Assembly: GCA_903881505.1 (NCBI GenBank)
Contig: CAIRTM010000011.1
Span: 5,612 to 69,611, forward strand
Reading direction: 5' to 3'
From: an uncultured delta proteobacterium
GTDB lineage: Bacteria; Desulfobacterota; WTBG01; CAIYCZ01; CAIRTM01
DNA: 64,000 nt
The notes beneath the pieces were generated by a model. That model was not told where the DNA came from. It searched no databases and saw nothing but the letters and a program-made list of their open reading frames with translations. A program made the position numbers and the translations under genes. Below are positions 6,696-45,334 of this stretch, piece after piece; position 1 is the stretch's first letter, and the number at the start of each line of letters is the position of its first letter.

Positions 6696-6830
6696 TCACC
6701 AGATCGTCGAGCGCATCCTGATCCGCTCAACCGTGTACTGAAACCCATCCTCCATAAGGCGCTTAGGAACAACGGCCTGTCCGTCAAACAGCATGCAGGC
6801 CCTTTGCGCATATACGAGAAAACTGTGCCG
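6696..6830 (-). pseudogene. Relic 3-prime end of a TIGR01777-type epimerase paralog
   Basis: Minus-strand translation ...RACMLFDGQAVVPKRLMEDGFQYTVERI aligns with the C-terminus of the intact 10737..11633 protein (ACVLLDGQIAVPKRLTDAGFRFQYQRI), and the DNA shows the same similarity. It has no N-terminal body. Confidence 0.55.
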
Positions 6831-6840
6831 AGGCATAGAT

Positions 6841-6884
6841 ACACACAGGCAGGGGCGCTTATCGCCAGCCCCTGCCTGTGTGTA
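6841..6884. terminator. Strong GC hairpin downstream of the S8 peptidase gene. Candidate terminator.
   Basis: ACACACAGGCAGGGGC...GCCCCTGCCTGTGTGT perfect 16-bp inverted repeat. No clean U-run follows, so its role is uncertain. Confidence 0.45.
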
Positions 6885-6909
6885 ATCCATTGTGTCTGAG
6901 AAACAAAGT

Positions 6910-10438: not shown

Positions 10439-10442
10439 CTCC

Positions 10443-10495
10443 TTGACAGTAAAAATTTATACAATACTGTATCCCGGATACTGTATACCGCACAA
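10443..10495 (-). promoter_or_regulatory. Candidate promoter and operator of the S8 peptidase gene
   Basis: On the minus strand, TGTATAAAT (extended -10 type) lies ~25 nt upstream of the ATG. The direct repeats ATACAGTAT-CCGGG-ATACAGTAT (plus-strand ATACTGTAT at 10464..10472 and 10478..10486) sit over the -35 region. Confidence 0.35.
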
Positions 10496-10736
10496 ACCAG
10501 AACCCATGGTTCATGAGGCTTCCCCACGCAATTATTGTGTCTATTCATTGCGTACCATAATCCTCGTTTTTCAAAATAGCAACAAAATTTACAATTATTA
10601 GTTGAAGAAAACCCCATAAAGTACTCCACGCCCCTTACAGGCCTTTTTCCAATGGAACCCCGTCAAAAAAACAGGTCCGCATCAACACAGGGAAGGCGGC
10701 AATCCATGCTCAGGGCGGCCTGCGCAACGTGAGATT

Positions 10737-24536: not shown

Positions 24537-24661
24537 GACTCTTCCTTCCCTGTGCCTGTCGGTTTGATCCCTGCAGCATACTAACGTTTGTGTACTTTGT
24601 TAACAACGTCCCCTATCATGCACACTCTATCTTTTCCCTCAACCGATTCGGCGCAAAATCT

Positions 24662-25015
24662 TTATTTCTTTAAAAATGAGATTAAAAAAAGACTGGCTGA
24701 ACCTAATAGAACAATTCCCAAAATTGCAGCCGGAATCATATAATACAAAGCACCCGCCATTTCATCCAAATTTTGATTAATCATATAAGCAGCTATGCAT
24801 ATTAGTTCAAAAAAAACCAAGTGCCCCACAGAATGAATGGTGAATTTTGTATTAAAACAAAGAGGCATTGCAATCGAATATAAAATAGCCAACACTGAAA
24901 ACAGAATGAAAAAAAGCATGAGATGCCCATCTTTGCCTCTTGTAACGGCGTAAGATGCGATGACCAATAAGGTGCCAAACCAGTATAAATTGAAAATCTT
25001 CAATAGTGATTTCAC
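24662..25015 (-). CDS. Putative immunity protein of the Rhs toxin (117 aa, polytopic membrane protein)
   Basis: Its start overlaps the Rhs stop. Low-GC codon usage matches the toxin C-terminal domain. Four hydrophobic helices. Confidence 0.6.
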   Translation of the reverse strand: MKSLLKIFNLYWFGTLLVIASYAVTRGKDGHLMLFFILFSVLAILYSIAMPLCFNTKFTIHSVGHLVFFELICIAAYMINQNLDEMAGALYYMIPAAILGIVLLGSASLFLISFLKK

Positions 25016-34000: not shown

Positions 34001-34053
34001 AAAAACAGACAACCTGCAAGAAGGGCACCTGTAAGCAGAGACAGCTTTTTCAT
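25012..34053 (-). CDS. Rhs/YD-repeat polymorphic toxin (3013 aa). Signal peptide, transglutaminase-like core, long YD-repeat shell, RHS core, and a C-terminal alpha/beta-hydrolase (lipase/PGAP1-like, Tle-like) toxin domain.
   Basis: N-terminal MKKLSLLTGALLAGCLFFVPAPGA. Transglutaminase-like core GCGNDVDTASLLIALLRYSGYPARY. Dozens of YDxxGR YD repeats. RHS core ending YRYYSPVLGRWLNRDPMGE...DPLGD. C-terminus VVVLVHG...IIAHSQGT (GxSxG nucleophile elbow). GC content falls over the last ~900 bp. Confidence 0.9.
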   Translation of the reverse strand: MKKLSLLTGALLAGCLFFVPAPGAQSLFNPGTYERFEQLGSEMSSHMQQLDRKFEDMQSRRTEKALAAFLKSAERFAGRTGELDRLLALMEQELLENGADDVFVERHRAQAAALKKRFAALSDCTRRGDINGMIERGLLGGRKKRIEAMERSSALGRNARKSKTSSEIVRPKGRELTAAETGELNMPRPGFGLLAENGVFKMVKFNSKDSLSAGQPSQPLLSPVAAWDLDLPRRARPIHVASVSSVQGLLSRATIAAVAPPAAADLLEDELGDVVFAAPIKALADSLGKNPIRIYEWVKNTIDFQPYRGSLKGAAQTLAEGCGNDVDTASLLIALLRYSGYPARYAEVRAIVDINRAMQWLGLKSPAMVGYYLATGDIKDVEDLYRGSTIAQSSFLHTCVEVYLPYADYRGTAESERHKLWVPLAPAFKQYRSTAGAVNEQGLGFDAEQFIQSLDQFSNIADSGLVDIDTESFQEFMTASTADYQARLQDFLDDHPDMTLRDFYGYDEVAKETFPILPITLPFETDQSQYRTYSSVPLEEHHQVSVQLSYWGVDLDIELETLEIDFRAPTSQVAGQRLVLSYVPSTSADYETLAEYTGTFLETPLYMIYMRPQLRLNGRLVAENTGKDAEISMGLEETLRVAIVRPGEDVKNPSRTSDYVTTVGDHTAIVLGLGRASSENITAALARFNEALGERTSELDRLLGEQLHITGSSYFYQLDTHADLIARQLGVRWYRNPSDIRIARHLKVSYLFDVWPVRVTETNIRVDVSERVQTVPQDADWQLRDAFLRTEGMQGSVFEHLVLQQLFRQESVSAVKLVAEAVGRNVPLYQFTQDMGSFDLSPLQLEPEDLEIVSRELTDYGQNVLVPSQRIDVGTFTGVGIISTTPPGNPMGPFRMGYFISLKGADPYVIGGGQIVEEIAKWNRDFVDPQYSDWLQVAGVLADAAAALITNSDSIRDGNVPVNTLIRGIAQNVMALQLARIQSMGMGGIGFTLAGAMGQIGAMYQARDSLNEFMNNTWILYIDYENGKYNWENRYFPSIDKGERTVKYALINLNGFGVSGKTPAISSTHPDFELVGDPVPTAGTLGEGYFTFRMKNEKNLVPGDEIPITLLITSPEGREVRTTGTFIAAPCRLKNVYIDAQDDQSAYPLMPGSTVEVRAEEPYEGMELEWQIDNERTSPGILGSIIAQEGTSCWLSIDESTRLEGGGGFIVLNVKDVKSPACEITRSIAVGCESCAQKSGCPACALKNIDLNQGIDFKISLGKAAGGMSAGSLFIQSDRLRPDAAKPKSPDAVGDHTEAALGLESLAQGLEAVYAPSGEFSSEIYDVYKLYGRDVLRQIVAPEAFVDILPVDDYSYQVLFYPPSARGEKNDEGIYEVNFGYSPIAQWTVRNQSASKDVCESLLITENRGDAAKRYEYRKPEGSNVWTLIKGDSDQVVEVQTTDIGSDERAEVRTEKDRSGRVASKTSTLYRTYAWGRAVVEQTIDPDAARLTTRTQYDPATGRVLGRTQPDGSATTYSYDAQGRTSVEVSSWLDSAAGAGAGAARARHYDYTPIDPQDSGLPEDSHRPRTITETILGTVVAKAWYSYVRDAHGNRIETVEQAASPGASFGASGNQRTTRTYYSKGTGTVNSGRLRSVAYSDGRLDSYSYVRGAYSRPDDGSKGTFAEGSGSDLQNTLTRGTVTSPEGIAGTTIRENTIASGLGRTMMQETLVYTGSGYESVSWTVNTYDHEGHVIRVVNSDGTETSANWDCCGMTDETDARGIVTGYEYDFMKRVTHMRRPGAHGQVTTAYTYDGSGRRLTSTVSAGDLSLATESAYDKAGRLTSSTAADGLVTKYSYAAGGRVSTVTRPGGATEITERFLDGQVKSVSGTGTIARFYEYGVNPDGTRCTTVYTKDLSGPVWEKTVTDMLGRTVRVEKPGFGGTVEAAENFYNNKGQLVKTTATGMAATLYVYDEIGNQVMSGLDVDGNNVLAPASGDRITASTSVYVSADDAWWQKAEQKVFATENSATPTTVATQLSRFTGLGSGGLVSENVSIDTLGNRVVSRSVINRAAGTETATVDYPDSTIDAVSFSVNGLLMSSTGKSGVTLTYAYDDLGRRVGLTDPRTGRSTTGYTSHGRVAWVQDAAGNRTLYNYNSATGEKISETNPDNTTVRYSYNNQGQITRQWGSATYPVSYEYDGYGRLARMLTYREGAGFDGETFPAGASGDETLWIYDEATGLLKAKQDAEGKQVAYTYASGGRLASRTWAREGGTIVTSYNYDPATGELAAIDYSDATPDVQFSYDRLGRQKTVSDAAGSRTFAYNSALQLETETMTGLMNETITRDYDGLGRSSGFSLGAGYDITYAYDPTGRFINVGWTGDSLSGNAVYSYVPNSHLLQSTTTDRGLITTYSYEPNRNVRTNIENAYNAQIISNYAYAYDSMGRRTSVKNSGAAFDRAAFNLYGYNSRSELTGSQSYIGTDTGDTTTPVNAEARTFAYDNIGNRESAIEALTKQITYDPNPLNQYTQITTNAGAPVTDDLHYDEDGNLVAGSVAGAVRTALTYDAENRLISVEPQTPAPGTRKVAFTYDYMSRRVQKQVFDYNADSWSAASDTRFLYDGWNLICEVSIPTSNPGLQTSVLYVWGLDLSGTLQGAGGIGGLLTRISDNAHYYTCDANGNVGQLVDTDGIIAAHYEYDPFGNTINSNGLLAEANPYRFSTKYLEAETGLYYYGYRYYSPVLGRWLNRDPMGEAGGVNLYNFVFNNTNDCIDPLGDVVVLVHGVNTDAAWFSTAEKGLKAYWNSTGQNIQEIIPFKWGDPSTSFGLSRKQGGQPNYATDSVAGMRDSNRKYMMVSVDRLKRILNLLNSIKEKEKSCEPISIIAHSQGTIISLAALQGGSKVDTFIMMGSPLDVLPFNSETNDLLKALSQIRGKTYNYWSPNDEWAWFKGGIGAKGDEIAKIQELGWITNRKFAPDETMGKYILPHDKPFDEYNHSDYMLSADFFTNIHGPDLAPAPDIIVSKNPAINQIKAMGSIW

Positions 34054-34823
34054 TAAAGAGCTCCTTTAGTGCGGTGATGGTCGTTTGTGGACGAAGTAGG
34101 CGTTGTGGACACTGTGGACTCAGTTGACCGGCACCGGGAGCGCACGCGGTAGAGGCGCTCGGTGAAACCGCCTTCATTTTCAAAGGCCTGTGCAAGGGAA
34201 GCGAGCTGACGGTCAAGCAGCGCACAGGCAACGGCCACAAGCGCAAGAGCGCCGTTGGCGGCTATTTCGGGAAAACCGGGAGTGGACATGGTGGACGATG
34301 TGGACGGCGTGGACGAAAAACCTTTATTAATATTTTTTTCAAAATGTCCACTGCGTCCACATCGTCCACTTGGTCCACTGTTGTACACCTCCCGCACCCA
34401 GTGCGCAAACTCATCGGCCGTTGTGCAGCGCCGGTCAACCAGGGCCTGCCTGCGCGCGTCCCCGCGCTGCCAGAGGGGCAGGCCCCGCTGGCGCAGAAAA
34501 TCCTCATAATCGACCCGGAGTTCCTCAAGGCTTGCGCGTGCGACACTGGTGAGCCGCAGCTCGGTTTTTTTCGAAGTGCCGGATGCCTGGCTGCCCTCGG
34601 CGATATTTTGCACGCCTGAGCGCGCAGCCTGCACCATCTGGTCGCGCGTTCGGCTGCGCCGGTCGACATAGCGCTCGCAGAAGCGCACGGTCACGTCATG
34701 CACGAGACGGGCGACTTGAAAGCTTTTCAGCCCGCGGTAGCCGCCGTGTTTTGGTATAAGCTTTTCAGTCATTCTGGGGCTCGCATTCAGGCAGTGTGCC
34801 GATGAACGGTTCATGGCCGACAT
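34053..34823 (-). CDS. Four-helix-bundle protein (TIGR02436 / 23S rRNA intervening-sequence protein family, DGR Avd-like fold). The 3-prime third overlaps the repeat/palindrome region.
   Basis: The likely start is MTEKLIPKHGG. It overlaps the upstream stop as ATGACTGA. Family motifs QMVQAARSGVQNIAEGS and LTSVARASLEEL. The ORF then reads through the GTGGAC arrays as STPSTSSTMST. Whether the downstream ~380 bp is coding is uncertain. Confidence 0.65.
   Translation of the reverse strand: MSAMNRSSAHCLNASPRMTEKLIPKHGGYRGLKSFQVARLVHDVTVRFCERYVDRRSRTRDQMVQAARSGVQNIAEGSQASGTSKKTELRLTSVARASLEELRVDYEDFLRQRGLPLWQRGDARRQALVDRRCTTADEFAHWVREVYNSGPSGRCGRSGHFEKNINKGFSSTPSTSSTMSTPGFPEIAANGALALVAVACALLDRQLASLAQAFENEGGFTERLYRVRSRCRSTESTVSTTPTSSTNDHHRTKGAL
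34084..34381. repeat. Arrays of head-to-tail 9-bp TGTGGACNN repeats (resembling high-GC DnaA boxes), arranged as a ~37-bp-arm palindrome around a 27-bp AT-rich core, plus a third array
   Basis: 34279..34316 GTGGACATGGTGGACGATGTGGACGGCGTGGACG. AT core AAAAACCTTTATTAATATTTTTTTCAAAA. 34344..34381 TCCACTGCGTCCACATCGTCCACTTGGTCCAC (inverted). 34084..34128 TGTGGACGAAGTAGGCGTTGTGGACACTGTGGACTCAGTTGACC. Confidence 0.6.
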
Positions 34824-37800
34824 TCATGGAGCCCTGCCATGACTTGACGATAACTGTGCCTGAAATAATGCCGCTGTTGTTTGTCAGTTCAGCCAGCGGC
34901 GCAAGCACACTGCCATTCAATGCCACTGCCGTACAGTCAAAGGACGTCGCCTCAAAAAAATTAAAAAGAATATAGCCGCGCATCCAGCCCGGAACAGCCA
35001 TGCCGATATGCGAAACTTCCGTATGCTCGCCACTGATATTTATGATAACCGTTGCGTTTCGCGGGATATCGCTCAGGTGCAGGCTGCTGGCGCTTCGCAG
35101 CTGCTGAGCGCTGATGTTGAATATCTGGACGGGGTTTGTGCCGCTGCCGCGCAGGGTCAAAACAGCGGCACAGGTTGATGCGGTTCCGGTGGGCGCAAGG
35201 CCGCCAAGACGCGTTGAGAGCAGGCGAAAGCGCGATGATTCCTGCTCGAAGCCAAAGGGTAGCTCTGCATTGCCGGCAACCGTTGCGCCCCGAGCCATTG
35301 TGCGGCGCACCATGCAGGACACACCGTCAACACTGCCGGAGGCGACGATGCTGCCCCGGTGGACCACGCCGATTCCGTACTCAATGTCGCCGCCGGAGAC
35401 AAGAACGCCACGCTCCGGAGCGCCGTGCGGCACATATGTGCCCATAACGACATTCTCAAGCTCGACATCACCGGCCGCGGCAACACGACCCGAAACGGTT
35501 GCATGCTGCGATGCCAATGGGCCAAGCGAAAAAATGCTGTAGTCCTGCGCAACGCCCAGACTATCGACACACTCAACCGGCTGATTGGGTATGGTAATCG
35601 CGCAGGTGTCGGGAATGCTGTCGAGCTCTCCGTCATTGACGATGAGCTGTATAATATAGGCACCGGCTTTATCGGCTGTAAAGACCGGGTCGGGCAGCGT
35701 GCTGTCATTGAGCACGGCCGTGCTGCCTTCAGGCGCGTTTACTATCGCCCACTGGTACGTAAGCGGGTCGGCATCGGGGTCATGGCTGGCTGAAGCGTCA
35801 AGACGCACAGCATCGCCTTCATTCACTTCACGGTCAGGACCGGCATCGGCAAGCGGGCGGCGGTTGCGCGTTGTGACCTCCAGTTCAACAGGATCGCTTG
35901 CATACTCAAAATCGCGTACAACGAGCTGCAGCCGGTACACACCCGCCATGTCAGCTTGGAAAACAGGATCGGAAGCAAAACGATCGGACAGTTCAGCCGC
36001 GCTGCCTTCGGGCCGGGCGGCCAAGGTCCACTCATACTGCACGATCGTATCGTTGTCGGGATCATAGCTTGCGGATGCTTCAAGCTGCACCGTTTCACCG
36101 ACCTCGATGAGCAGGCTTTCACCGGCGACCGCAAGCGGCGGGCGGTTTTCGGTGGTGACGAGCACGCTGTCGCTGCGGCTCCGGCACATGCCGTCAGAAA
36201 CGCTCAGGCGCAGCTCATACGCGCCGTGCCGATCCGGCAGCAGCGTCGGATTATAGATATCAGAACCGGCAAGCCGGGTGATGCTTCCCTCCGGGGACGC
36301 AGCCAGAGCCCAGCTATAGCTGATGCTGTCGCCGTCAGCATCGTAACTGCCGGAGCCGTCCAAGCGGGCAAAATCACCAACATGTACCAGGATATTTTCA
36401 CCGGCAACGGCAACCGGACAGCGGTTAATAATGCCCAGCGGGGCGAATGCAAGGTTGTGAGCGGTACCGTCAATCATGGTGGACAATATAATCACATAGT
36501 CGCCGCAGGCCAGACCTGCGCTCTCCAGCACGCTCGTGCCGCTGCAGTCGTTACCATCAAACATGCAGGTGGTTTCGAAAACCGTTGTCTCCTGCCGCGT
36601 GGAGGTGTTAACAGCCCTGGAAACCAATGCAGTTTCATCGAGTGCGGTATTACCGCTGTTGGTAACGCCATAGTTCAGCGCAACATCCTGCCCGCGATGC
36701 ACCTGTGCTGGCTCTGCGGTAAGAAAGGCGCCCAGCCCCCTGCCGCCGTCCGCGCTGGGTGCAATGGTGAAATGCGTTCTGTCCGATGCAACCGGGGTAC
36801 CGTCCTGCTCAACGCTCAGGTTCAGCGTGTAGAGGCCGGGGGCATGTCGCGCCGTATTCCAGGCCTGCTCCCAGGAGCGGCCTGCAAGCGGCGGCAGCAC
36901 CCCAACAGCATGCTCATCGGTATAGAGAACGTCACCTCTGGGGCTGAGCAGCTCGACAAAAGCGCTCAGGCCGCTAAATGCATAATTGGGCGAAAAGCTC
37001 TGCAGCACACTGCTGATGCGCACCTGCGCATGATCATAATAGAGCCTGCGCTCCGTGCTGACATCGGCGCCGACCGTCCGATCAGCCAGGATCACAAAGG
37101 GGGCAGCTGCCGCGGCGCGGCGCTGACCGTCTTCAAACAGGGTGGCCGCAACACTCAACTGCCCGGCCGGCGCGCTGCCCGTATTCCATACAAAGTCATC
37201 TATAACCACGGTGCCGCCGGGCGGCAGCACAACGATACGTCCTTTCGCAGGCTCGGCGGCGACCGTTCCGTTACTGTCAAGCATTGCCACGTCAAGAAGT
37301 ACGGTCCGTTCGACGGGAGAACTGTTGGTTATACGGGCTGTAATGACAACATCCTCGTCATATCCATACTGATCGCGGTCAAGGTTCAGCTCGAGCGCAA
37401 GTCCGCTGGGCACAACACGGATCAGGGCACTTCCTGTGTTGTTGTTCTCATTCTGTTCCCTGATCATGCCTTGGGGATCGGACTGCACGATGATGCGGCG
37501 CTCGCCCGTGCGCCCGGCTGTGTCAAACAGAGCGCTTGCCGTGCGGCTCCCGCCATGCGGCACGATCTCATGGATGATGCGCTCCGCGATCAGTTTTTCA
37601 GCCGCGACCTCGCTGTCGTAGAAATGCACCGTGACGCCGTCGACATCCGCTCCGAGGTTTCGCACCGCAGCCGACACGCTTACCAGCGCGCCTTCAACCG
37701 GAGATGCGTCTGCAAAGCTGATATCCGTATCGCGCACCTCAAGGTCGCTCAGGCTGCGGGGCACGACATCGATAGGTCGAACAGCACTGTTGTTGACCCG

Positions 37801-40800
37801 GTTGACATCATTGACCGCATTGACAGGATCAACAACAACATGGATATAGTTGCTGCCCAGCTGACCGTGCGTGTCCCACGGTTTGAAAACAATATCGCTT
37901 GCACCGGGCGCAAGCGATCCCAGCGCCTGATCGGACCCGATCGGCTCAGTGCCGTTCAGGAAGCGAACCGAGGTCGGGGCGGACGCGATGAGGCCGATAT
38001 TACGCACCCGGGCCGCGATGAGGACCGTGCGGCCCTCATCAGGCGCTTCGGGGCTGAACATGATATCCGTGCCTGCAATCGCAAGATCGGCAACAACATC
38101 GGACGTGTTCTCAACAACGAACGCACCCACGCCATAGCCCGGAACACCTTCAATGGTCCGCGCTTCGATGCTGACGATATCGGTACCGGCCGAATGAGCG
38201 GCGCTCAGCACATGGGTGCCGATAAACACCCCGCCAATCTTGGCAAATGCGATGCTGTGGGTGCTGCCTTCGTATTCGGTGACGCTGCCCGAGACCTGCT
38301 GCACCTGAAAGGCATCCTCTTCGGGTTCGACGGTTACAATCACCGTATCACCGGGCTGATAAGCAGGCTTATCAAACGATATCGCCAGCTCAGGCCCCGG
38401 GGTATAGTCAGCCAACGCAAGGGCCCTGACCGCATAACCTGTAGGGTTTGTGCTGCTGCGCAGCCCTGGCAGTATCGGCCAGCCGCCGTCAGCATTCTGC
38501 ACGGCCAGCAGCCATTGCACGGCACGTGCGGTTCCTACCCCCTGGTTATCGGTCTGGATCAGGGCAAGAAGGACGCAGGCTGTATCCTGAACCGTGCTTT
38601 CATACTCGCCCCAGCCGCCATCCGCATTCTGACGCTGCTGCAGCCAGGCAACAGCGTCATCGACCTCTGTCTGGTAACCACCAAACTTGTTAAGTATTTT
38701 TAAACTGTTGGCAGCATGAGAAATAGTTTCCCAATTGACTGTACCTGTCTTCTGGAGCAGAAGCCACTCAATTGCCTGCTCTGCAAGGTCTCTCTGCGCG
38801 CCGGTAAGCATGACACCATCAGACAGCAAACCCAGCACGCAAAGAATCGTAGGATTGATTTCTGACGGACCCCCGCCTGCAAGACTGTACCGGTACCAGC
38901 CGCCATCGTCATTCTGCTGTCCAAAGAGATATTGAATCACTCCAGCCATGGCGTCAGTTTTGCCGCTGACATTTAGCCCTGTTTGACCCAAAGCCCTGAG
39001 AACTGCTGCGCCCGCAGTAAGATGGTGCTGGGGAATCATGGAAAACTGTATGTGCCAGTTGCCATTGCTTTTCTGCGTGCTGATAATACGGACAAGTGCC
39101 TCCACTATTGTTGCATTGTATCCGCCGGCATCATTCATGCTATCCAATGCAAGAAGTGCCAGTGATGTGGGGATGGCCTGGTCATAGGGGTTTTGAAAAT
39201 CTCCATCCGGCTCAACCATCATGGTCTTAAGCCATTGAAACGCCTTCCTGATGGCTGCCCCGCCGCCTGTGTCACTGCTGCGATACAGGCTTATGACAGA
39301 CTCTGCCGTCATACGAGGAGACTCCAGCGGCGTAGCTGATGGCTTTTCATCAACCCAGCCGCCATTCGCAGACTGAAGGGCCTTCAGGTCGTTCATCGTG
39401 GCCGCTATATCGCCGGCATTTCGTCCGGTGTAAAAAAGCATGGCAAGATAAGCGCTTTTATAATTGGCAACACTCCATATGTTGTCCCTGTACCAATTGA
39501 CCGCCTGTGTAATTGCCGCCTGACCGGCACTGTCGCTTTCATGGCAGGCCCAATGCAGACCGGCAACGGCATAATGCATATTCGTAGGCGCACTTGCCTC
39601 TCCGGCATAGAACCCCCAAAACCCGTCAGGGTTACGGCTGTCGAGCAGCCATTGCCGTGCTGCCTGCACTGCAGGATCCTCACGGCTTACCCCGGCTTCC
39701 ATTAAAGCCCACAGGGCATGCCCTGTATCCCGCACCGGAGAACTGTTCAACACGCCATCATCCCGCAAATACCTTTGCAGCCATATGAGTGCATTACTGA
39801 TGACAGGTGATGAAATATCCTCTCCAACAGCAACCAGGGCCAGAACTGAGTCTGCTGTTGCAGAAACGTTGTTTTCCCAGCTGCCGTTGGTTGCCTGCGT
39901 TTCACGAACACGCCGCAGAATCGTCGCATACATGCCGCTAAACTCGGGATCGAGGTAGCGGCCTGAGATATGCAGGGCATGAAGCGCAGCAGCATTGGCC
40001 CGCGCTGGAGCAAAATCTTCCCATCCGCCAAGGCTGTGCTGATGCTCAACGAGCCACTGGACGCCCTGAGAGACAGCCCTGTCCTTGAGGTTCTGTGAAT
40101 ACGCGATGGCAACAGTGGCAGCGGCGGTATTGTTTGCCTCATTGCTCTCGGCCAGCCGGCCCTGACCGGTTCCGTCGTCGTCAACCACGACAAACAGGTG
40201 ATACTCTCCTTCGACCGGATCTTCCCAGATAAGCGTGACATCTGCATACGCGCCCGAGGCAAGCCCGGAGGCTGTCTGCTCAACGCCGAGCAGTATGGCG
40301 CCCTGAGCCGGATCGCCGCTATAAAAGGCGACATCAATGCCGGGATCAACATCCACGGTGCCGGTATTGCTGACACTCACAGTTATTGCAGCACTGTCGG
40401 GCAGATTGTTCGGATTGCGACGGACACGCGAAGCCGCAAGATCAAGCACGGGATCTTCTTCAGGCACACCCACGGTGAGCGCAAACGATGCGCTGTTGTT
40501 GGCTGTGCCGGATTCCGGCACGAATCCACCCGGATCTGCGACAACATGCAGTGTGTGAGCGCCTGCCGGCAGGGAAATTGAAAAGGAGGCCGGTGCGCTG
40601 GCGTCGGCGGCAACCAGCGGCAGATTCACCCGGCCAAGTTCGGGGCTGGTGTCAGGCGGTCCGCTGTATACAGCCGCTTCGACATCGTAGGCCTCATGCG
40701 TACCGATATTGTGTATAACGGCATCCAGTGTGAAGGATTCTCCGGGCAGAAGAGGGCCGGAGTCAACCGAGAGGTCATCTGCAGTTATTGACAGATCGGG

Positions 40801-43422
40801 CGAACTGACCAGCAAGGTCATACTGACTGTATTATTGTATTCATTCGTTTCTGTAATTGCGTCCTGAGAGTCGGCTTGCACGAAGACGCTCTGCGAAGCG
40901 GCAAGCAGCGCAGCCCGAGCGGAAAAAGCGAGACTGACACACGAGTGAACCTCAAGCGAATCAACCCTCGCAACGGCAATCGGCTGCATACCATCATGCG
41001 GCTGCCCTGCATCCAGGGCGATATCAAAAGGATCAGTAACCGGCCGCGAGCCCTGATTGCACACCGTAGCGTACATGGTTACGTCGTCGTCAATAGACGG
41101 TGCTGACGGAGAGAACGCGAGGCTGTCCGCACTGATCGCGAGATCGGGTCCCGGGTCATGGATAACCGCGAATGAACCCCAGGCACTATTGTTCTCCTCA
41201 TCCACTTCGGCAAAGCTTTCTTCAGGATCCACGAACGCATACAGGGTCTGCTCGCCGCCGCGGCCAGCAGTGTCGAACACGCCGCTTGCGTACAGCGACT
41301 GCCCCGCGCCGAGCCAGGCAATCGTCGGAAGGCTATCAAGAACCAACCTGCCGCCGCCGAGCGGATCGCCGTCATACACGCCGAACGCGACGCCTGCAAG
41401 GCCTACATTGCCGTGATTGGTGATCCTGCACCTGACAATAGCGGGATCGCCTGCATGAGGCATGGCAGGGGTTATGGTTAGAGCATCAACACCAAGATCA
41501 ACAACATCCAGAACGCCCAGAACATTCAGTGCTGCATACGCGATATTATTTGACGGTGTTTCGTCCTGCTGTGCCGGAGAGACAGTGACGGCCGCGAAGA
41601 TGCGGTAGGCGCCGGGATCAAGACTCACGCCATCCAGTGTGAGCGTAACGCTGCCACCGGCGCTGACCTCAACACCGCTGAAGGCATGCAGCAACGCGGC
41701 TGATTGCGCGGCATCAACAGCAAACAGCTCCACCACGGCATCCCTGGCGGCGACATCGCCCCTGTTGCGGATTAGGGCTGAAATGCTGATCTGTTCGTCT
41801 TCCCGCGGATAGGCCGGTAAAAAGGAAAGGCCGGATTGTTCAACCGCAAGATCGAGGCCCTGAATCACGCCCGGCATAACCGTGAACGGGCAGGCTTTGT
41901 CATTGTTATCGACGTGTTCTTCAACAACCCCGGGGCCTGCGGAAACCGACACCACGTATCCATAGGCACCGGCCGGCATGGTCAGTTCAAAATCAGCCCG
42001 GCCGCTGCAGCCTCCGCAGACATTATTGAGCGCAACCTCGAGCAAGGGAGCGCTTGCAGCCGGATTGCCCTCATACAGACCCACGGTGACAGGGCCGGCA
42101 TCGCTTTCACCCAGGTTGTGAACCTGCGCTGCAAGCGTGAATGGCTCATCCGCCAGCAGCGCTGCATGGTTCAGCTCAATGCCCGCGATGATCAGGTCAG
42201 GCAGAGTGCCGGCTGTCAGACTTTTAACCGCCACATTGTCGGCAGTGCTGATTTCCTCAACAAGGTCATGCGGGTCGACAATCACATACAGGTTGGCTCG
42301 GCCCGGCTCGCCGCTCAGCACAAAACCCAGCTGGACACCCGTATTGCCGCCCGGTGCCAGCGATGCAACCTCGCCGCTGGCAAGGAACTGCCCGCCTGCT
42401 TCGGGGTCACCACGGTACAGCTCGATCTCTATGTTTTCAGCCGTACTGCTGCCGGTATTGCGCACCTCACAGGTAACCGTAACCTGCTGGCCTGCAGCAG
42501 GATGAGCGGGCTGCACGCTGATGCCGGATGGATGCACCTGCAGATTCGGAAGGTCGATGCCGGCGCTTGCATGAAGGGCGGCAAGCGCAAGCGCGGTGTC
42601 GCGAACCCGCCCGTTCCAGCTGCCGCTGACCGGGTCCTGAACACTCAGCAGAAAGGCTCGCGCATCGGACACGGCCTGAGACTGGCTGCCTTCAGCCTGG
42701 AGAGCCAGAATCGCCAAAGAGGTTTCAACAACGCTGCTGCCATCCTCGCCGAAACCGCCGTCAACATTCTGATGCCCGGCGATAAAACCCGCCGCCCGCT
42801 CTGCAAATGACGACAGGTTATAGCGCGGCTGCAGCCTGTTCATGACAATGAGCGCCCGGCACGTCACCTCGAGACTTTCCGGGCCGCTGCCGGAATAGGA
42901 AAAAGCGCCGCTGCCCTGCTGACGGGCGGCGAGATATCCAAGGGCCAGACCGATGGCCTCGCCATCAATACCTGCCCCCAAAAGCGCGTCCAGAGCCAGA
43001 ATGCTGTCAATCACAGAGCCGGGATACCCGTCCGAAAAACCGAACCCGCCATCGCTGTTCTGCCGAAGAAGCAATTCGGCAACATCCTGATCAACTGCAT
43101 GCGCGTCATCGGCCAGGGCAATAATTTTATGCGCCCGGCAATCGGTTGAAGCGGGTTGCTGTTCGCTGAGATAGTGCCGCGCCGCTTGCACGTCTATGCC
43201 GCTGTCAGGGAAACGCGATACGGCCCGCAGAACCGCTGCCGTATCGCGCACGGATTCCGGCCCCCAGAGCCCGCTGTCGGGATCCTGCTCTTTGTCAAGC
43301 CATTCCAGTGCAACAGCCAGCTTCTGGGTGTAATCATCGGCATGGGATGCAGAAACCATGCAAAAGACAAAAAATGCAGCCCACGCAGTCCACAGCCCGG
43401 CAAACTTTCGCATTATTGCCAC
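34765..43422 (-). CDS. Giant secreted surface protein (2885 aa). Two blocks of QW/prenyltransferase-like alpha/alpha-toroid repeats, many CARDB-type domains, three PKD-like domains, and a C-terminal choice-of-anchor-A-like domain.
   Basis: Signal peptide MRKFAGLWTAWAAFFVFCMVSASHA. QW-like motifs (QNADGGWGEY, QNDDGGWYRY, HQNVDGGFGEDG, QSANGGWVDEKP). CARDB-like repeats. PKD-like repeats NRPPLAVAGE..ASASYDPDNDTIVQYEWTL. C-terminal LGVAQDYSIFSLG...NISGEHTEV. No CGEQ thioester motif. Confidence 0.85.
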   Translation of the reverse strand: MAIMRKFAGLWTAWAAFFVFCMVSASHADDYTQKLAVALEWLDKEQDPDSGLWGPESVRDTAAVLRAVSRFPDSGIDVQAARHYLSEQQPASTDCRAHKIIALADDAHAVDQDVAELLLRQNSDGGFGFSDGYPGSVIDSILALDALLGAGIDGEAIGLALGYLAARQQGSGAFSYSGSGPESLEVTCRALIVMNRLQPRYNLSSFAERAAGFIAGHQNVDGGFGEDGSSVVETSLAILALQAEGSQSQAVSDARAFLLSVQDPVSGSWNGRVRDTALALAALHASAGIDLPNLQVHPSGISVQPAHPAAGQQVTVTCEVRNTGSSTAENIEIELYRGDPEAGGQFLASGEVASLAPGGNTGVQLGFVLSGEPGRANLYVIVDPHDLVEEISTADNVAVKSLTAGTLPDLIIAGIELNHAALLADEPFTLAAQVHNLGESDAGPVTVGLYEGNPAASAPLLEVALNNVCGGCSGRADFELTMPAGAYGYVVSVSAGPGVVEEHVDNNDKACPFTVMPGVIQGLDLAVEQSGLSFLPAYPREDEQISISALIRNRGDVAARDAVVELFAVDAAQSAALLHAFSGVEVSAGGSVTLTLDGVSLDPGAYRIFAAVTVSPAQQDETPSNNIAYAALNVLGVLDVVDLGVDALTITPAMPHAGDPAIVRCRITNHGNVGLAGVAFGVYDGDPLGGGRLVLDSLPTIAWLGAGQSLYASGVFDTAGRGGEQTLYAFVDPEESFAEVDEENNSAWGSFAVIHDPGPDLAISADSLAFSPSAPSIDDDVTMYATVCNQGSRPVTDPFDIALDAGQPHDGMQPIAVARVDSLEVHSCVSLAFSARAALLAASQSVFVQADSQDAITETNEYNNTVSMTLLVSSPDLSITADDLSVDSGPLLPGESFTLDAVIHNIGTHEAYDVEAAVYSGPPDTSPELGRVNLPLVAADASAPASFSISLPAGAHTLHVVADPGGFVPESGTANNSASFALTVGVPEEDPVLDLAASRVRRNPNNLPDSAAITVSVSNTGTVDVDPGIDVAFYSGDPAQGAILLGVEQTASGLASGAYADVTLIWEDPVEGEYHLFVVVDDDGTGQGRLAESNEANNTAAATVAIAYSQNLKDRAVSQGVQWLVEHQHSLGGWEDFAPARANAAALHALHISGRYLDPEFSGMYATILRRVRETQATNGSWENNVSATADSVLALVAVGEDISSPVISNALIWLQRYLRDDGVLNSSPVRDTGHALWALMEAGVSREDPAVQAARQWLLDSRNPDGFWGFYAGEASAPTNMHYAVAGLHWACHESDSAGQAAITQAVNWYRDNIWSVANYKSAYLAMLFYTGRNAGDIAATMNDLKALQSANGGWVDEKPSATPLESPRMTAESVISLYRSSDTGGGAAIRKAFQWLKTMMVEPDGDFQNPYDQAIPTSLALLALDSMNDAGGYNATIVEALVRIISTQKSNGNWHIQFSMIPQHHLTAGAAVLRALGQTGLNVSGKTDAMAGVIQYLFGQQNDDGGWYRYSLAGGGPSEINPTILCVLGLLSDGVMLTGAQRDLAEQAIEWLLLQKTGTVNWETISHAANSLKILNKFGGYQTEVDDAVAWLQQRQNADGGWGEYESTVQDTACVLLALIQTDNQGVGTARAVQWLLAVQNADGGWPILPGLRSSTNPTGYAVRALALADYTPGPELAISFDKPAYQPGDTVIVTVEPEEDAFQVQQVSGSVTEYEGSTHSIAFAKIGGVFIGTHVLSAAHSAGTDIVSIEARTIEGVPGYGVGAFVVENTSDVVADLAIAGTDIMFSPEAPDEGRTVLIAARVRNIGLIASAPTSVRFLNGTEPIGSDQALGSLAPGASDIVFKPWDTHGQLGSNYIHVVVDPVNAVNDVNRVNNSAVRPIDVVPRSLSDLEVRDTDISFADASPVEGALVSVSAAVRNLGADVDGVTVHFYDSEVAAEKLIAERIIHEIVPHGGSRTASALFDTAGRTGERRIIVQSDPQGMIREQNENNNTGSALIRVVPSGLALELNLDRDQYGYDEDVVITARITNSSPVERTVLLDVAMLDSNGTVAAEPAKGRIVVLPPGGTVVIDDFVWNTGSAPAGQLSVAATLFEDGQRRAAAAAPFVILADRTVGADVSTERRLYYDHAQVRISSVLQSFSPNYAFSGLSAFVELLSPRGDVLYTDEHAVGVLPPLAGRSWEQAWNTARHAPGLYTLNLSVEQDGTPVASDRTHFTIAPSADGGRGLGAFLTAEPAQVHRGQDVALNYGVTNSGNTALDETALVSRAVNTSTRQETTVFETTCMFDGNDCSGTSVLESAGLACGDYVIILSTMIDGTAHNLAFAPLGIINRCPVAVAGENILVHVGDFARLDGSGSYDADGDSISYSWALAASPEGSITRLAGSDIYNPTLLPDRHGAYELRLSVSDGMCRSRSDSVLVTTENRPPLAVAGESLLIEVGETVQLEASASYDPDNDTIVQYEWTLAARPEGSAAELSDRFASDPVFQADMAGVYRLQLVVRDFEYASDPVELEVTTRNRRPLADAGPDREVNEGDAVRLDASASHDPDADPLTYQWAIVNAPEGSTAVLNDSTLPDPVFTADKAGAYIIQLIVNDGELDSIPDTCAITIPNQPVECVDSLGVAQDYSIFSLGPLASQHATVSGRVAAAGDVELENVVMGTYVPHGAPERGVLVSGGDIEYGIGVVHRGSIVASGSVDGVSCMVRRTMARGATVAGNAELPFGFEQESSRFRLLSTRLGGLAPTGTASTCAAVLTLRGSGTNPVQIFNISAQQLRSASSLHLSDIPRNATVIINISGEHTEVSHIGMAVPGWMRGYILFNFFEATSFDCTAVALNGSVLAPLAELTNNSGIISGTVIVKSWQGSMNVGHEPFIGTLPECEPQND

Positions 43423-45282: not shown

Positions 45283-45334
45283 AACTGGCCCTGAAACAAT
45301 ACTGGCGAGTGAACGGAGAGGAGCCCCATCAACC

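What the first reader, a model, noticed from the sequence alone, without database searches (positions are those of the whole stretch)
34053..43422. Giant adhesin-like protein, Avd-like four-helix-bundle protein and Rhs toxin are translationally coupled in one operon, with no reverse transcriptase nearby
The stop of the 2885-aa gene overlaps the start of the four-helix-bundle gene (AATGACTGA; ATGACTGA is shared). The stop of that gene overlaps the Rhs start (TAATG). The four-helix-bundle protein belongs to the family that contains the diversity-generating-retroelement accessory protein Avd. Avd normally partners with a reverse transcriptase and a TR/VR repeat pair, and none of those is present here. 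An Avd-like protein embedded between a giant surface protein and a polymorphic toxin hints at a different role, for instance as a chaperone or adaptor for the toxin, or at a decayed DGR.
Basis: partly seen in the sequence, partly recalled or inferred. Interest (0 to 1): 0.6.

Follow-up and report, generated by a model that had tools for sequence, protein, structure and literature searches.

The report
Four-helix-bundle passenger gene in Rhs operon
The small gene wedged between a giant surface protein and an Rhs lipase toxin belongs to a widespread, highly conserved, uncharacterised four-helix-bundle family that usually sits in restriction-modification operons; it is neither a broken diversity-generating retroelement nor, on present evidence, a toxin-specific helper, and it carries an apparently undescribed palindromic 9-base repeat.

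Summary
On the minus strand, giant protein (43422..34765), four-helix-bundle (4HB) gene (34772..34053), Rhs (34053..25012) and a 117-aa membrane ORF (25015..24662) overlap by 8, 1 and 4 nt. No reverse transcriptase or TR/VR pair lies in the 64 kb.

The 4HB protein belongs to TIGR04258, "four helix bundle suffix". The family has over 8000 homologues at 60-84% identity across more than 15 phyla. It was absent from viral contigs and nearly absent from plasmids.

In 80 other genomes its tight neighbours are mostly type I and ISP restriction-modification genes. I saw no RT, and only one distant Rhs. The giant-4HB-transglutaminase/toxin arrangement is confined to a small clade, and a close relative (L085) has giant and transglutaminase genes adjacent without it. 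A decayed DGR or a dedicated toxin adaptor is therefore unlikely.

One new feature emerged. The gene carries a strong hairpin (-56 kcal/mol) made of RTGGAC/GTCCAY units every 9 nt, which encodes a disordered loop between helices 3 and 4. The arrays show nucleotide-level conservation family-wide. Similar hairpins also occur as dispersed intergenic, REP-like elements. Their function is unknown; I favour a generic, nucleic-acid-level intercistronic role.

The parts
34765..43422 (-). Giant secreted or surface protein gene (2885 aa from GTG 43422; 2882 aa from ATG 43413). It has an N-terminal signal peptide, alpha/alpha-toroid (prenyltransferase/SQHop cyclase-like) repeats, at least 8 CARDB domains, PKD domains and a C-terminal choice-of-anchor-A/pAdhesive_15 domain.
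   Evidence: orthologues in L004 (70%), L085 (67%) and L089
34053..34772 (-). Four-helix-bundle 'suffix' gene (239 aa). It combines a TIGR02436 N-terminal part (aa 16-87) with the TIGR04258 suffix domain (aa 168-215). The start overlaps the giant stop (ATGACTGA) and the stop overlaps the Rhs start (TAATG).
   Evidence: AlphaFold2 pLDDT 77.6, pTM 0.68
34346..34379 (-). Array A: four GTGGAC units at 9-nt period in the gene sense. It encodes SGPSGRCGRSGH and forms the 5' arm of the hairpin.
34315..34345 (-). AT-rich 31-nt apical loop of the hairpin (encodes FEKNINKGF). It is specific to the window clade (window, L004, L089, L088).
34281..34314 (-). Array B: four GTCCAC units at 9-nt period in the gene sense. 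It encodes STPSTSSTMST and forms the 3' arm of the hairpin. The A:B duplex is -55.5 kcal/mol.
34128..34271 (-). Suffix domain (aa 168-215). In the model it is helix 4 of the bundle (H167-199) plus a short extra helix (H202-216).
34087..34128 (-). Array C: GTCCAC-type units at 9-nt period at the 3' end of the gene (encodes STESTVSTTPTSST). It can pair with array A as an alternative to B (-48.4 kcal/mol).
34051..34070 (-). ACTAAAGGAGCTCTTTAATG: the ribosome-binding region and start of the Rhs gene. It is conserved in relatives with and without the 4HB gene. The last codons of the 4HB ORF (..TKGAL*) are read from it.
25012..34053 (-). Rhs polymorphic toxin gene (3013 aa). It has a signal peptide with a lipobox-like LLAGC. 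The conserved ~1450-aa N-terminal part carries a transglutaminase core (aa 289-405). YD repeats follow, then the RHS core (aa 2675-2752, ending ..DPLGD).
25012..25797 (-). C-terminal toxin domain (aa 2753-3013): an alpha/beta hydrolase, Tle3-like, with an AHSQG nucleophile motif. GC falls to 34-42% from about 25,900 leftwards.
24662..25015 (-). 117-aa ORF with four hydrophobic segments and low GC. Its GTG start overlaps the Rhs stop (GTGA). It is the presumed immunity protein.
   Evidence: no family hit; role inferred from position

Best explanation
The middle gene is an ordinary, intact member of the 'four helix bundle suffix' family (TIGR04258). This is a cytosolic, very strongly conserved small protein whose gene is characteristically wedged between genes of other operons, most often type I or type ISP restriction-modification operons.

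In the ancestor of a small clade of Desulfobacterota-like bacteria, a copy came to lie in the short spacer between the giant surface-protein gene and the transglutaminase-type lipoprotein gene. In the window that lipoprotein gene has become an Rhs-lipase fusion. The copy has been inherited there since. It is translated as part of the operon, and its ORF ends in the downstream gene's own ribosome-binding region.

It is not part of a diversity-generating retroelement and is not specific to the toxin.

Inferred: the module acts on nucleic acid. The gene always carries arrays of the hexamer RTGGAC, or its complement, at a 9-nt period. These form a long hairpin in the loop between helices 3 and 4, with a third array at the gene's 5' leader or 3' end that can compete for pairing. 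The most likely role is a generic intercistronic one. The Avd-like oligomer and/or the hairpin would set processing, stability or translational coupling of the polycistronic transcript, and so the expression ratio of the upstream and downstream genes.

Shown: family membership, phyletic spread, neighbourhoods, presence/absence in relatives, nucleotide-level conservation of the arrays, and the fold.
Inferred: any binding of protein to the arrays, any RNA processing, and any effect on Rhs expression.
For: Family and constraint.
- TIGR04258 scores 66.9 bits (cut-off 40) and TIGR02436 scores 33 bits (cut-off 24).
- More than 8000 homologues were found. The listed top 120 are 65-84% identical, and sources name them 'four helix bundle suffix protein'.
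- At least 573 loci occur in species-representative genomes of Deltaproteobacteria, Acidobacteria, Verrucomicrobia, Planctomycetes, Chloroflexi, Nitrospirae, Chlorobi and others.
- Codon positions 1+2 are 87% identical and position 3 is 47% identical. GC3 tracks the flanking GC (r=0.80). The genes are therefore long-resident and under strong purifying selection.

Neighbourhoods.
- 46 tight upstream neighbours include Methylase_S 9, HsdR-like 5 and N6_Mtase 2.
- 35 tight downstream neighbours include HSDR_N 10, N6_Mtase 5, Methylase_S 4 and Eco57I 3.
- The remainder are miscellaneous, and no RT appears in the lists.
- Rhs or giant homologues occur only in L004.

The window clade.
- Giant-4HB-transglutaminase order is found in L004, L089-91, L088 and L087.
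- L085/L086 has giant followed directly by the transglutaminase gene, with the same RBS sequence but no 4HB gene.

Fold.
- AF2 gives helices 17-35, 41-65, 68-95 and 167-199, with disordered repeat-encoded loops.
- The best PDB matches are 2GSC and 2RLD, at probability 1.0 and TM 0.61-0.65 on the target.

Arrays.
- The window holds 9 hits against 0.22 expected, and 8 of them lie inside this gene.
- The hairpin folds at -56.2 kcal/mol, z=-7.9.
- Family-wide, 9-nt spacing occurs in 168 and 220 cases for the two orientations.
- In the linker, Gly is GGA in 74% of cases against 13% elsewhere, and Ser is TCC in 61% against 19%. The linker folds better than synonymous recodings (median z=-2.9).
- The outer base covaries between arms (r=0.70), and this survives a GC3 control.
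- The arrays are non-coding in the 5' leaders of 33 of 81 loci, and lie after the stop codon in L037 and L054.
Against: - No experiment bears on function.
- The spacers between hexamers show no gene-specific complementarity: cognate arms pair no better than non-cognate arms (p=0.91). There is also no G-U wobble bias towards the sense strand. An RNA hairpin, a DNA palindrome and a simple protein-binding array cannot be told apart.
- Part of the codon-bias figure is circular, because linkers were located by the motif itself.
- The module has been retained at this exact position while the neighbouring transglutaminase protein diverged to 31-36% identity. That retention is also what an operon-specific function would predict.
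- The position relative to the toxic subunit is inconsistent in R-M operons. The gene sits upstream of hsdR in one subtype and upstream of hsdM in the other, so a simple model of gating a toxic downstream gene does not fit all cases.
Confidence: 0.6

Rival explanations
1. The 4HB-suffix protein is the cognate binding partner of a dispersed family of RTGGAC-array palindromes. The relationship would resemble that of RAYT proteins to REP/REPIN elements. The copy in this operon would then be one locus of a genome-wide protein-repeat system, unrelated to the toxin.
For: - A metagenome scan for 3+3-unit palindromic arrays returned 122 hairpins. Only 26 lie in 4HB-suffix genes and 96 lie elsewhere.
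- Of the 61 hairpins with enough flank, 37 are intergenic, often within 0-30 nt of convergent gene ends.
- The fetched stretches around the standalone hairpins carry about 0.25 further arrays per 10 kb.
- Arrays also sit in leaders, tails and neighbouring R-M genes of family loci. They flank a whole R-M+4HB operon as direct repeats in L061.
- The protein and the hexamer core are both conserved across phyla.
- As a control, TGGAC arrays in viral contigs are collagen-like repeats and none of 154 is palindromic.
Against: - No 4HB-suffix gene lies within the 448 kb around the standalone hairpins.
- The window has no array outside the gene in 64 kb.
- The protein has no recognisable nuclease or transposase motif.
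- Genome-level co-occurrence could not be tested.
- The Y1-transposase/DnaA_C gene next to the operon is not linked to family loci.
Confidence: 0.2
2. The 4HB protein is a dedicated cytoplasmic chaperone or adaptor for the Rhs/transglutaminase effector, or for the giant protein.
For: - The gene is tightly coupled between the two genes.
- The order giant-4HB-transglutaminase is kept in at least four lineages, although the transglutaminase protein has diverged to 31-36% identity.
- The gene is intact and under purifying selection: against L004, about 93% identity at positions 1+2 and 72% at position 3.
Against: - The family is not otherwise linked to toxins. One of 80 loci has a distant Rhs on the other strand, and neighbours are mostly R-M subunits.
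- L085/L086 has the same giant protein (67%) directly followed by the transglutaminase gene without it.
- At 84% identity to L004 it is no more diverged than family members from other phyla would suggest, so there is no sign of neofunctionalisation.
- Both supposed clients carry export signals and the 4HB does not.
Confidence: 0.12
3. The gene is a remnant of, or a trans-acting part of, a diversity-generating retroelement whose RT and template lie elsewhere.
For: - The protein is in the Avd-containing superfamily (PMC10053308, read).
- Giant surface proteins are typical DGR targets (general knowledge).
- Only 64 kb of the genome could be inspected.
Against: - No RT was found among the 25 major ORFs scanned, and no TR/VR-like repeat touches the operon.
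- No RT appears among the listed neighbour families of the tight neighbours in 80 genomes.
- The family was not found in viral contigs.
- bAvd is not among the top 50 structural matches, and there is no sequence-level PDB hit.
- The protein is 239 aa with an insertion, not the Avd size.
Confidence: 0.03

Closest known systems
TIGR04258 / TIGR02436 'four helix bundle suffix domain-containing protein' (NCBIfam); PF05635 23S_rRNA_IVP superfamily
   Same: It scores above both NCBIfam cut-offs. Length, conserved motifs (HGGYR, QNIAEGSQASGTSKK, GGFTERL) and the Gly- and Ser/Thr-repeat linkers match the family. The fold is a four-helix bundle like 2GSC and 2RLD.
   Different: The context differs. Family members usually sit in type I or ISP R-M operons or next to miscellaneous genes, whereas this one lies between a giant surface protein and an Rhs toxin. 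The window clade also has a 31-nt AT-rich insertion at the hairpin apex and lacks the 5' leader array. The Pfam score (31.8) is just under the gathering threshold (33.8).
bAvd, the accessory variability determinant of the Bordetella phage BPP-1 DGR (PDB 4DWL)
   Same: It is a small helical-bundle protein of the same broad superfamily. It is encoded immediately upstream of, and coupled to, a large gene, and is presumed to bind nucleic acid.
   Different: There is no RT and no TR/VR. The protein is about twice the size, with a repeat-encoded disordered insertion. The family was not found in viral contigs. bAvd is not among the best structural or sequence matches.
PF05635 genes embedded in CRISPR-cas operons, e.g. 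between cmr3 and cmr2 (Zhang et al. 2013, PMC3936711)
   Same: The same superfamily shows the same habit of sitting between genes of a conflict-system operon, and part of the conserved S..NIAEG motif is shared.
   Different: That is a different subfamily (about 110-130 aa, no suffix or linker arrays) in different host operons.
23S rRNA intervening sequences that encode S23p-type four-helix-bundle ORFs and are excised at a stem by RNase III (own knowledge of Leptospira and Coxiella IVSs)
   Same: A 4HB ORF is associated with long inverted repeats that can form an RNase III-sized stem.
   Different: Here the element is in an mRNA operon, not in rRNA. The main stem lies inside the ORF and does not enclose it. 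No processing was tested.
Rhs/YD-repeat polymorphic toxins with swappable C-terminal toxin and immunity cassettes; Tle-type lipase effectors
   Same: YD repeats, an RHS core ending in DPLG, a C-terminal alpha/beta-hydrolase toxin, an overlapping small immunity-like ORF, and a sharp GC drop at the core/toxin boundary.
   Different: The N-terminus is a Sec/lipoprotein-type signal plus a 1450-aa transglutaminase-core module, which exists as a stand-alone partner of the giant protein in relatives. No PAAR, VgrG or T6SS genes were detected among the ORFs scanned. The presumed immunity protein is a 4-TM membrane protein.
REP/REPIN-RAYT systems and Rickettsia palindromic elements (in-frame palindromes in coding genes)
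   Same: Short palindromic repeats are dispersed near gene ends, and copies occur in-frame inside genes, where they encode extra loops. A conserved protein gene is decorated with the same repeats.
   Different: The repeat is built from 9-nt-periodic hexamer units. The associated protein is not a Y1 transposase. The link between protein and dispersed repeats is unproven.

Membership tests
Diversity-generating retroelement (Avd role) | Reverse transcriptase gene in the same locus | tested here: not met
   No RVT hit in the 25 major ORFs scanned in the 64-kb window. No RT among the families listed for 81 tight neighbours of family members.
Diversity-generating retroelement (Avd role) | Template/variable repeat pair (about 100-150 bp, near-identical, A-specific differences) | tested here: not met
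   The repeat finder on the whole window returned no repeat involving 24.6-43.4 kb. All long repeats lie at 1-10.4 kb.
Diversity-generating retroelement (Avd role) | Avd-type four-helix-bundle protein (about 110-130 aa, pentameric, basic) | tested here: inconclusive
   A 4HB fold is predicted, but the protein is 239 aa with a 35-aa disordered insertion. The best PDB matches are 2GSC and 2RLD, and 4DWL is not in the top 50. Oligomeric state is not testable here.
TIGR04258 four helix bundle suffix family | Scores above the curated cut-offs of TIGR04258 and TIGR02436 | tested here: met
   66.9 bits against a cut-off of 40, and 33.0 bits against 24.
TIGR04258 four helix bundle suffix family | Four-helix bundle in which the suffix supplies the last helix | tested here: met
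   AF2 gives H17-35, H41-65, H68-95 and H167-199, with pLDDT above 90 in these helices.
PF05635 23S_rRNA_IVP | Pfam gathering threshold | tested here: not met
   31.8 bits against a gathering score of 33.8, E=1.8e-7, covering only profile positions 8-74 of 106. The precomputed Pfam annotation of homologues does list PF05635.
23S rRNA intervening sequence ORF | Located inside a 23S rRNA gene | tested here: not met
   The gene lies between two protein-coding genes. The Rfam scan of 33800-35000 gave only sub-threshold miRNA-like hairpin hits.
Rhs / YD polymorphic toxin | YD repeats plus RHS-associated core ending in DPxG | tested here: met
   RHS_repeat E=1.8e-39; TIGR03696 at 80.8 bits against 32.5 for aa 2675-2752..IDPLGD at aa 2749.
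Rhs / YD polymorphic toxin | Variable C-terminal toxin followed by a cognate immunity gene | tested here: inconclusive
   Tle3-like hydrolase domain (E=1.8e-14) with AHSQG. GC is 34-42% from about 25.9 kb to 24.65 kb. An overlapping 117-aa ORF has no family hit. Immunity function is inferred from position only.
Type VI secretion effector (Tle-type) | PAAR/VgrG/T6SS genes adjacent, or an N-terminal PAAR domain | tested here: not met
   No such Pfam or NCBIfam hits in the Rhs protein or in the scanned ORFs. The Rhs has a Sec/lipobox-like N-terminus (read by eye).
REP/RAYT-like repeat system | Dispersed multicopy intergenic palindromes of the same sequence class | tested here: inconclusive
   Met in metagenome contigs: 96 of 122 hairpins lie outside 4HB-suffix genes, and 37 of 61 are intergenic. 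None occurs elsewhere in this window.
REP/RAYT-like repeat system | Associated Y1 (RAYT) transposase flanked by the repeats | tested here: not met
   The window's Y1_Tnp+DnaA_C gene (24359..23316) carries no arrays nearby. Its homologues are absent from 80 family loci, apart from one weak fragment in L088.

The most novel reading that the evidence does not exclude
The four-helix-bundle suffix protein and the 9-nt-periodic RTGGAC arrays form one conserved protein-repeat system.

- The Avd-like oligomer would recognise the periodic hexamers, one per subunit, in RNA or single-stranded DNA.
- Inside operons (R-M, and here giant/Rhs), the module would act as an intercistronic switch. Competing array pairings (A:B versus A:C, or leader:B) would set processing or translational coupling of the flanking genes.
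- The dispersed intergenic hairpins would be further targets of the same protein.

This would give a function to a very large uncharacterised family. It would also link Avd, the IVS-encoded 4HB proteins and REP-like repeats through a shared theme of structured-nucleic-acid binding.
Probability: 0.22. Interest if true: 0.8.

Novelty: new variant of a known kind. Interest (0 to 1): 0.5.

Why it matters
For the finding as posed, the result is mostly deflationary. There is no cryptic DGR and no evidence for a new class of toxin adaptor. The operon is a giant-protein/transglutaminase-effector pair with an Rhs-lipase payload, plus a generic passenger gene.

Two things are still worth knowing.

First, the passenger belongs to one of the most conserved yet functionally blank small-protein families in environmental bacteria. 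It is about 70% identical across phyla. It is chromosomal, was not found in viral contigs and gave one weak hit among 72,556 plasmids. This case shows that it is not restricted to R-M operons.

Second, the family carries a nucleotide-level signal that I could not find described. RTGGAC units at a 9-nt period occur in inverted orientation, in coding and non-coding positions, and also as dispersed REP-like hairpins. If protein and repeat are functionally linked, this becomes a tractable entry point. Gel-shift assays, transcript end-mapping and deletion could address what non-DGR Avd-like proteins do, which has been open since the 23S-rRNA IVS ORFs were described.

Tried and rejected
- RT and TR/VR search in the window: negative.
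- Known RNA family for the hairpin: only sub-threshold miRNA-precursor look-alikes.
- Sequence match to solved structures with a family profile: nothing below E=0.87.
- PADLOC defence models: no hit for the 4HB protein, the immunity ORF or the Y1/DnaA_C protein.
- Phage or plasmid carriage: none in IMG/VR by pattern plus tblastn, and one weak Prevotella hit among 72,556 plasmids. A recently mobile cassette is therefore not supported. GC3 amelioration agrees.
- Arm-to-arm covariation: cognate arms pair no better than non-cognate arms. I therefore dropped the claim of spacer covariation and kept only conservation of the hexamer core and covariation of its outer base.
- G-U wobble test for a sense-strand RNA: no sense bias, and antisense is slightly more stable.
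- Using TGGAC arrays alone as a marker: in viral contigs these are collagen-like G-P-T repeats. Only the palindromic arrangement is specific.
- Linking the arrays to the neighbouring Y1-transposase/DnaA_C gene, given that the unit resembles a DnaA box (TGTCCACA versus TTATCCACA): no adjacency in 80 loci. This stays a weak lead only.
- L087's 'canonical 112-aa 4HB' turned out to be a frameshifted 4HB-suffix gene. The assembly has long-read-style contig names, so I did not count it as a true pseudogene.
- A sigma-54 promoter upstream of the giant gene, next to a divergent histidine kinase and sigma-54 activator: none convincing by eye.
- Literature: no paper contains 'four helix bundle suffix'. 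Other searches gave only the Avd-likeness of PF05635 and its presence in cas loci.


Full report
**1. What is in the window**

Four ORFs on the minus strand are packed without gaps.
- Giant protein: 43422..34765.
- A 239-aa gene: 34772..34053.
- Rhs protein, 3013 aa: 34053..25012.
- A 117-aa hydrophobic ORF: 25015..24662.

The junctions are ATGACTGA (8 nt shared), TAATG (1 nt shared, with AAAGGAG 8 nt upstream) and GTGA (4 nt shared).

The giant protein has a signal peptide, prenyltransferase/squalene-cyclase-like toroid repeats, at least 8 CARDB domains, PKD domains and a C-terminal choice-of-anchor-A/pAdhesive_15 domain.

The Rhs protein starts with a signal peptide and a lipobox-like LLAGC. 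It then has a transglutaminase core (aa 289-405), YD repeats and an RHS core (aa 2675-2752, ending IDPLGD). A C-terminal Tle3-like alpha/beta hydrolase carries an AHSQG motif.

GC drops from about 58% to 34-42% at the core/toxin boundary and stays low through the 117-aa ORF. This is the usual signature of a swapped toxin/immunity cassette.

**2. No DGR parts**

Pfam scans of the 25 major ORFs outside the ribosomal-protein operon found no reverse transcriptase. The only long repeats in the window lie at 1-10.4 kb, in paralogous subtilase and Kelch surface-protein genes.

**3. Identity of the middle gene**

It matches TIGR04258 'four helix bundle suffix domain' at 66.9 bits (cut-off 40), over aa 168-215. 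It matches TIGR02436 'four helix bundle protein' at 33 bits (cut-off 24), over aa 16-87. Pfam 23S_rRNA_IVP scores 31.8, just below its threshold of 33.8.

The 120 listed were 65-100% identical, and several sources name them 'four helix bundle suffix protein'.
- The exhaustive search of 50%-identity representatives gave 2090 clusters at E<=1e-10.
- In one-genome-per-species contigs at least 573 loci were found. They come from Deltaproteobacteria, Nitrospinota, Nitrospirae, Acidobacteria, Verrucomicrobia, Planctomycetes, Kiritimatiellia, Lentisphaerae, Chloroflexi, Chlorobi, Methylomirabilota, KSB1 and others, all at 60-72% identity.
- Across these genes codon positions 1+2 are 87% identical and position 3 only 47%. 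GC3 follows the GC of the flanks (r=0.80, slope about 1). These are long-resident genes under very strong purifying selection, not recent transfers.
- No relative was found in 2.9 million viral contigs. One weak hit was found among 72,556 plasmids. No PADLOC model matches.

An AlphaFold2 model built from 48 sequences has mean pLDDT 77.6 and pTM 0.68. It gives long helices at 17-35, 41-65, 68-95 and 167-199, with pLDDT above 90. Two short helices (106-131) and one extra helix (202-216) complete the structured part. Residues 132-166 and 217-239 are disordered.

The 'suffix' is therefore helix 4 of the bundle. Foldseek's best PDB matches are Xcc0516 (2GSC) and BT_0352 (2RLD), which are S23/IVP-family bundles. 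bAvd is not in the top 50. A family profile finds no PDB sequence below E=0.87.

The protein belongs to the Avd-containing superfamily, but it is a separate, split-bundle subfamily.

**4. Where the family normally lives**

In 80 loci with up to 10-kb flanks I called ORFs and took same-strand neighbours within 150 nt.

- Of 46 upstream neighbours, 9 carry Methylase_S, 5 are HsdR-like helicase-nucleases and 2 are N6_Mtase. Singles include TIR, PemK, Schlafen/AlbA_2, GyrB and M17 peptidase.
- Of 35 downstream neighbours, 10 carry HSDR_N, 5 N6_Mtase, 4 Methylase_S, 3 Eco57I and 1 type ISP. The rest are housekeeping genes.
- Many junctions are ATGA overlaps.
- No RT family appears in either list.
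- tblastn with the window's Rhs and giant proteins hits only L004, plus one distant Rhs 3 kb away on the opposite strand in L063.

The literature I could search says only two things. PF05635 resembles Avd (PMC10053308). PF05635 genes sit between cas genes, for example between cmr3 and cmr2 (PMC3936711). No paper contains 'four helix bundle suffix'.

**5. The window's own clade**

The closest homologues occupy the same position.
- L004: 84% identical 4HB, between a giant protein (70%) and a transglutaminase/YD protein (81%).
- L089-L091: 82% identical 4HB, between a 3126-aa giant and an 1842-aa transglutaminase protein that ends in a DUF900 hydrolase and has no Rhs repeats.
- L088: 75% identical 4HB, followed by a transglutaminase protein and then a separate DUF900/LCAT hydrolase. 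DUF6125 and HD genes lie nearby, as in the window.
- L087: giant C-terminus, a frameshifted 4HB-suffix gene, then a transglutaminase protein. The frameshifts may be long-read assembly errors.

By contrast L085/L086, from two samples, has a giant protein 67% identical to the window's. It is followed directly by a 1476-aa transglutaminase protein with no 4HB gene. By inference, it is a close relative.

The sequence ACTAAAGGAG(T/C)T(T/C)TTTAATG before the transglutaminase start is conserved with and without the insert. In the window the last codons of the 4HB ORF (..TKGAL*) are read from it.

Between the giant's conserved ...GTLPEC and that RBS, L085 has about 170 nt with two degenerate 9-nt-periodic GTCCAC-like arrays. 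These are read as a C-terminal extension of the giant protein. They look like the scar of a lost module, although a pre-insertion state cannot be excluded.

In L004 and L089 the giant gene stops at a TAG one base before the 4HB ATG. The window reads CAG at that position, which creates the 8-nt overlap.

Three conclusions follow.
- The 4HB gene is a long-standing but dispensable occupant of the spacer in this operon.
- Its presence does not track the Rhs fusion.
- The hydrolase payload (Tle3-like or DUF900), not the 4HB, is the constant partner of the transglutaminase module.

**6. The palindromic 9-nt arrays**

Inside the gene there are three arrays.
- A: four GTGGAC units at 34346-34379 in the gene sense.
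- B: four GTCCAC units at 34281-34314.
- C: three to four GTCCAC-type units at 34087-34128.

Of the 9 two-unit matches in the window (0.22 expected by chance), 8 lie inside this gene. The ninth is a one-mismatch hit at 43379-43393.

A and B form a hairpin of -56.2 kcal/mol (z=-7.9) with a 31-nt AT-rich loop. A can alternatively pair with C, at -48.4 against -55.5 kcal/mol for A:B. The arrays encode exactly the disordered segments of the model, SGxSGx and STxSTx.

Evidence that this is a nucleotide-level feature of the family:
- GGAC and GTCC recur at 9-nt spacing 168 and 220 times, in fixed frames.
- In the linker, Gly is GGA in 74% of cases against 13% elsewhere in the same genes. Ser is TCC in 61% against 19%.
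- The linker folds better than synonymous recodings. Mean energy is -37.4 against -25.0 kcal/mol, with median z=-2.9 over 62 genes.
- The base before TGGAC (A or G) covaries with the base after GTCCA (T or C) at r=0.70. GC3 does not explain this (partial r=0.70).
- Thr is often replaced by Ile or Met while TCCA is kept.
- In 33 of 81 loci a further TGGAC array lies in the non-coding leader, 10-70 nt before the ATG.
- Genes with a short basic tail tend to have the leader array. Genes with the ST tail, like the window's, tend not to.
- In L037 and L054 array C lies after the stop codon.

Caveats:
- The linker was located by the motif, so part of the codon bias is circular.
- Cognate arms pair no better than arms from other genes (p=0.91). 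What is conserved is the hexamer and its period, not the spacers.
- There is no G-U bias towards the sense strand.
- RNA hairpin, DNA palindrome and periodic protein-binding array therefore remain indistinguishable.
- Rfam has no matching family.

**7. The arrays are not confined to the gene**

A metagenome scan for three forward plus three reverse units within 34 nt hit its 120-locus limit. Of 122 hairpins, 26 lie in recognisable 4HB-suffix genes and 96 do not.

Of the 61 hairpins with at least 500-nt flanks, 37 are intergenic. Many lie 0-30 nt from the ends of convergent genes, as REP elements or terminators do. Those stretches hold about 0.25 further arrays per 10 kb, but no 4HB-suffix gene in 448 kb.

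In family loci, single-orientation arrays also occur in-frame in a variable loop of HsdM (L029, L052). In L061 they occur as direct repeats bracketing a whole hsdM-hsdS-4HB-hsdR operon.

As a control, TGGAC arrays in viral contigs are collagen-like G-P-T repeats, and none of 154 has an inverted partner.

The Y1-transposase/DnaA_C gene beside the window's operon is not associated with family loci.

**8. Synthesis**

Shown:
- The middle gene is a bona fide, constrained member of TIGR04258.
- The family is chromosomal, spans many phyla and is embedded in operons, with a strong preference for R-M systems.
- Its presence in the giant/Rhs operon is clade-specific and dispensable.
- There is no DGR in reach.
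- The gene carries conserved periodic inverted hexamer arrays.

Inferred:
- The protein, like Avd, works on structured nucleic acid.
- The module has a generic intercistronic role, not a toxin-specific one.

Approximate weights:
- Generic-module explanation: 0.6.
- Protein-repeat (REP/RAYT-like) system: 0.2. This is compatible with much of the first.
- Toxin adaptor: 0.12.
- DGR remnant: 0.03.

**9. Novelty and score**

The operon is a new context for a known but functionally blank family, so I class it as a new variant of a known kind. As a DGR or adaptor story it is weak. The periodic arrays, and their dispersed relatives, are the part a specialist would find unexpected, and they are experimentally tractable. 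I score interest at 0.5.

Noticed in passing
L085:9827-10000 and L086:4950-5127 (relatives of window 34053-34780): This relative lacks the 4HB gene. Between the conserved end of the giant protein and the conserved RBS it has about 170 nt with two degenerate 9-nt-periodic GTCCAC-like arrays, read as a 44-aa extension of the giant protein. This looks like the scar of a deleted module, or alternatively a pre-insertion target.
   Followed up: partly
window 34765-34776; L004:9990-10003; L089:9770-9783: The giant gene's stop is TAG one base before the 4HB ATG in L004 and L089, but reads CAG in the window. The ORF therefore runs on to the TGA inside ATGACTGA, and the 8-nt overlap is a derived read-through.
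   Followed up: yes
L212-L331 (metagenome contigs), e.g. L240:3294-3351, L259:2925-2980, L322:5680-5736: Palindromic arrays of TGGAC/GTCCA units at 9-nt period are a dispersed, mostly intergenic hairpin family. They often lie between convergent gene ends, and 96 of 122 are not in 4HB-suffix genes. I found no description of them.
   Followed up: partly
L061:289-340 and L061:7714-7760: A whole type I R-M operon with its 4HB-suffix gene is bracketed by direct repeats (CTGCTGAAAGTCCGCCGTGGCGG followed by five GTCCA units). This suggests the operon sits within, or moved with, array-bearing repeats.
   Followed up: no
L029:11271-11300, L052:11252-11290 and 11897-11935, L006:12015: GTCCA arrays occur in-frame inside neighbouring HsdM/S genes, encoding STxSTx loops. 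In L029 and L052 they lie in the same variable loop after methyltransferase motif I, where orthologues have no insertion or unrelated insertions.
   Followed up: partly
window 24650-25900: GC falls from about 58% to 34-42% exactly from the RHS-core/toxin boundary through the 117-aa ORF. The toxin/immunity pair is a recently acquired cassette.
   Followed up: yes
window 25012-34053; L085, L088, L089: The first ~1450 aa of the 'Rhs' protein are a stand-alone conserved transglutaminase-core lipoprotein in relatives. It is always downstream of the giant protein and always associated with an alpha/beta-hydrolase payload: fused DUF900 in L089, a separate DUF900/LCAT in L088, and Rhs-encapsulated Tle3-like in the window. 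This giant-protein/transglutaminase/hydrolase system is itself uncharacterised.
   Followed up: partly
window 23316-24359 (-): Directly after the immunity ORF lies a Y1 (IS200/RAYT-like) transposase fused to a DnaA C-terminal HTH domain. The 9-nt unit of the arrays (TGTCCACA) loosely resembles a DnaA box (TTATCCACA), but no linkage to family loci was found.
   Followed up: partly
window 1-10629: Three secreted-protein genes (402 aa; 961 aa with Kelch repeats; 1239-aa subtilase with CarboxypepD_reg and InlB-B-repeat domains) share C-terminal and internal repeats. One example is 300 nt at 89% identity, 9032 nt apart, and there are 144-150-nt tandem units at 3434-3877.
   Followed up: no
window 43819-46684 (+): A Cache-domain histidine kinase and a sigma-54-dependent response regulator are transcribed divergently from the giant-protein operon. 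The histidine kinase is likewise adjacent to the giant gene on the 100%-identical contig L001. I saw no convincing sigma-54 promoter upstream of the giant gene by eye.
   Followed up: partly
one search hit list (P0171-P0318): Many 50%-identity cluster representatives of the family match only residues about 3-130 of the query, up to the start of the arrays. This suggests that gene calls or assemblies often break or shift frame at the palindromic repeat.
   Followed up: no
L029:13449-13973: A second, 42%-identical 4HB-suffix-like paralogue lies downstream of the HsdM/S gene in the same operon and lacks the arrays entirely. The arrays therefore characterise the highly conserved subfamily, not all suffix-type bundles.
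   Followed up: partly
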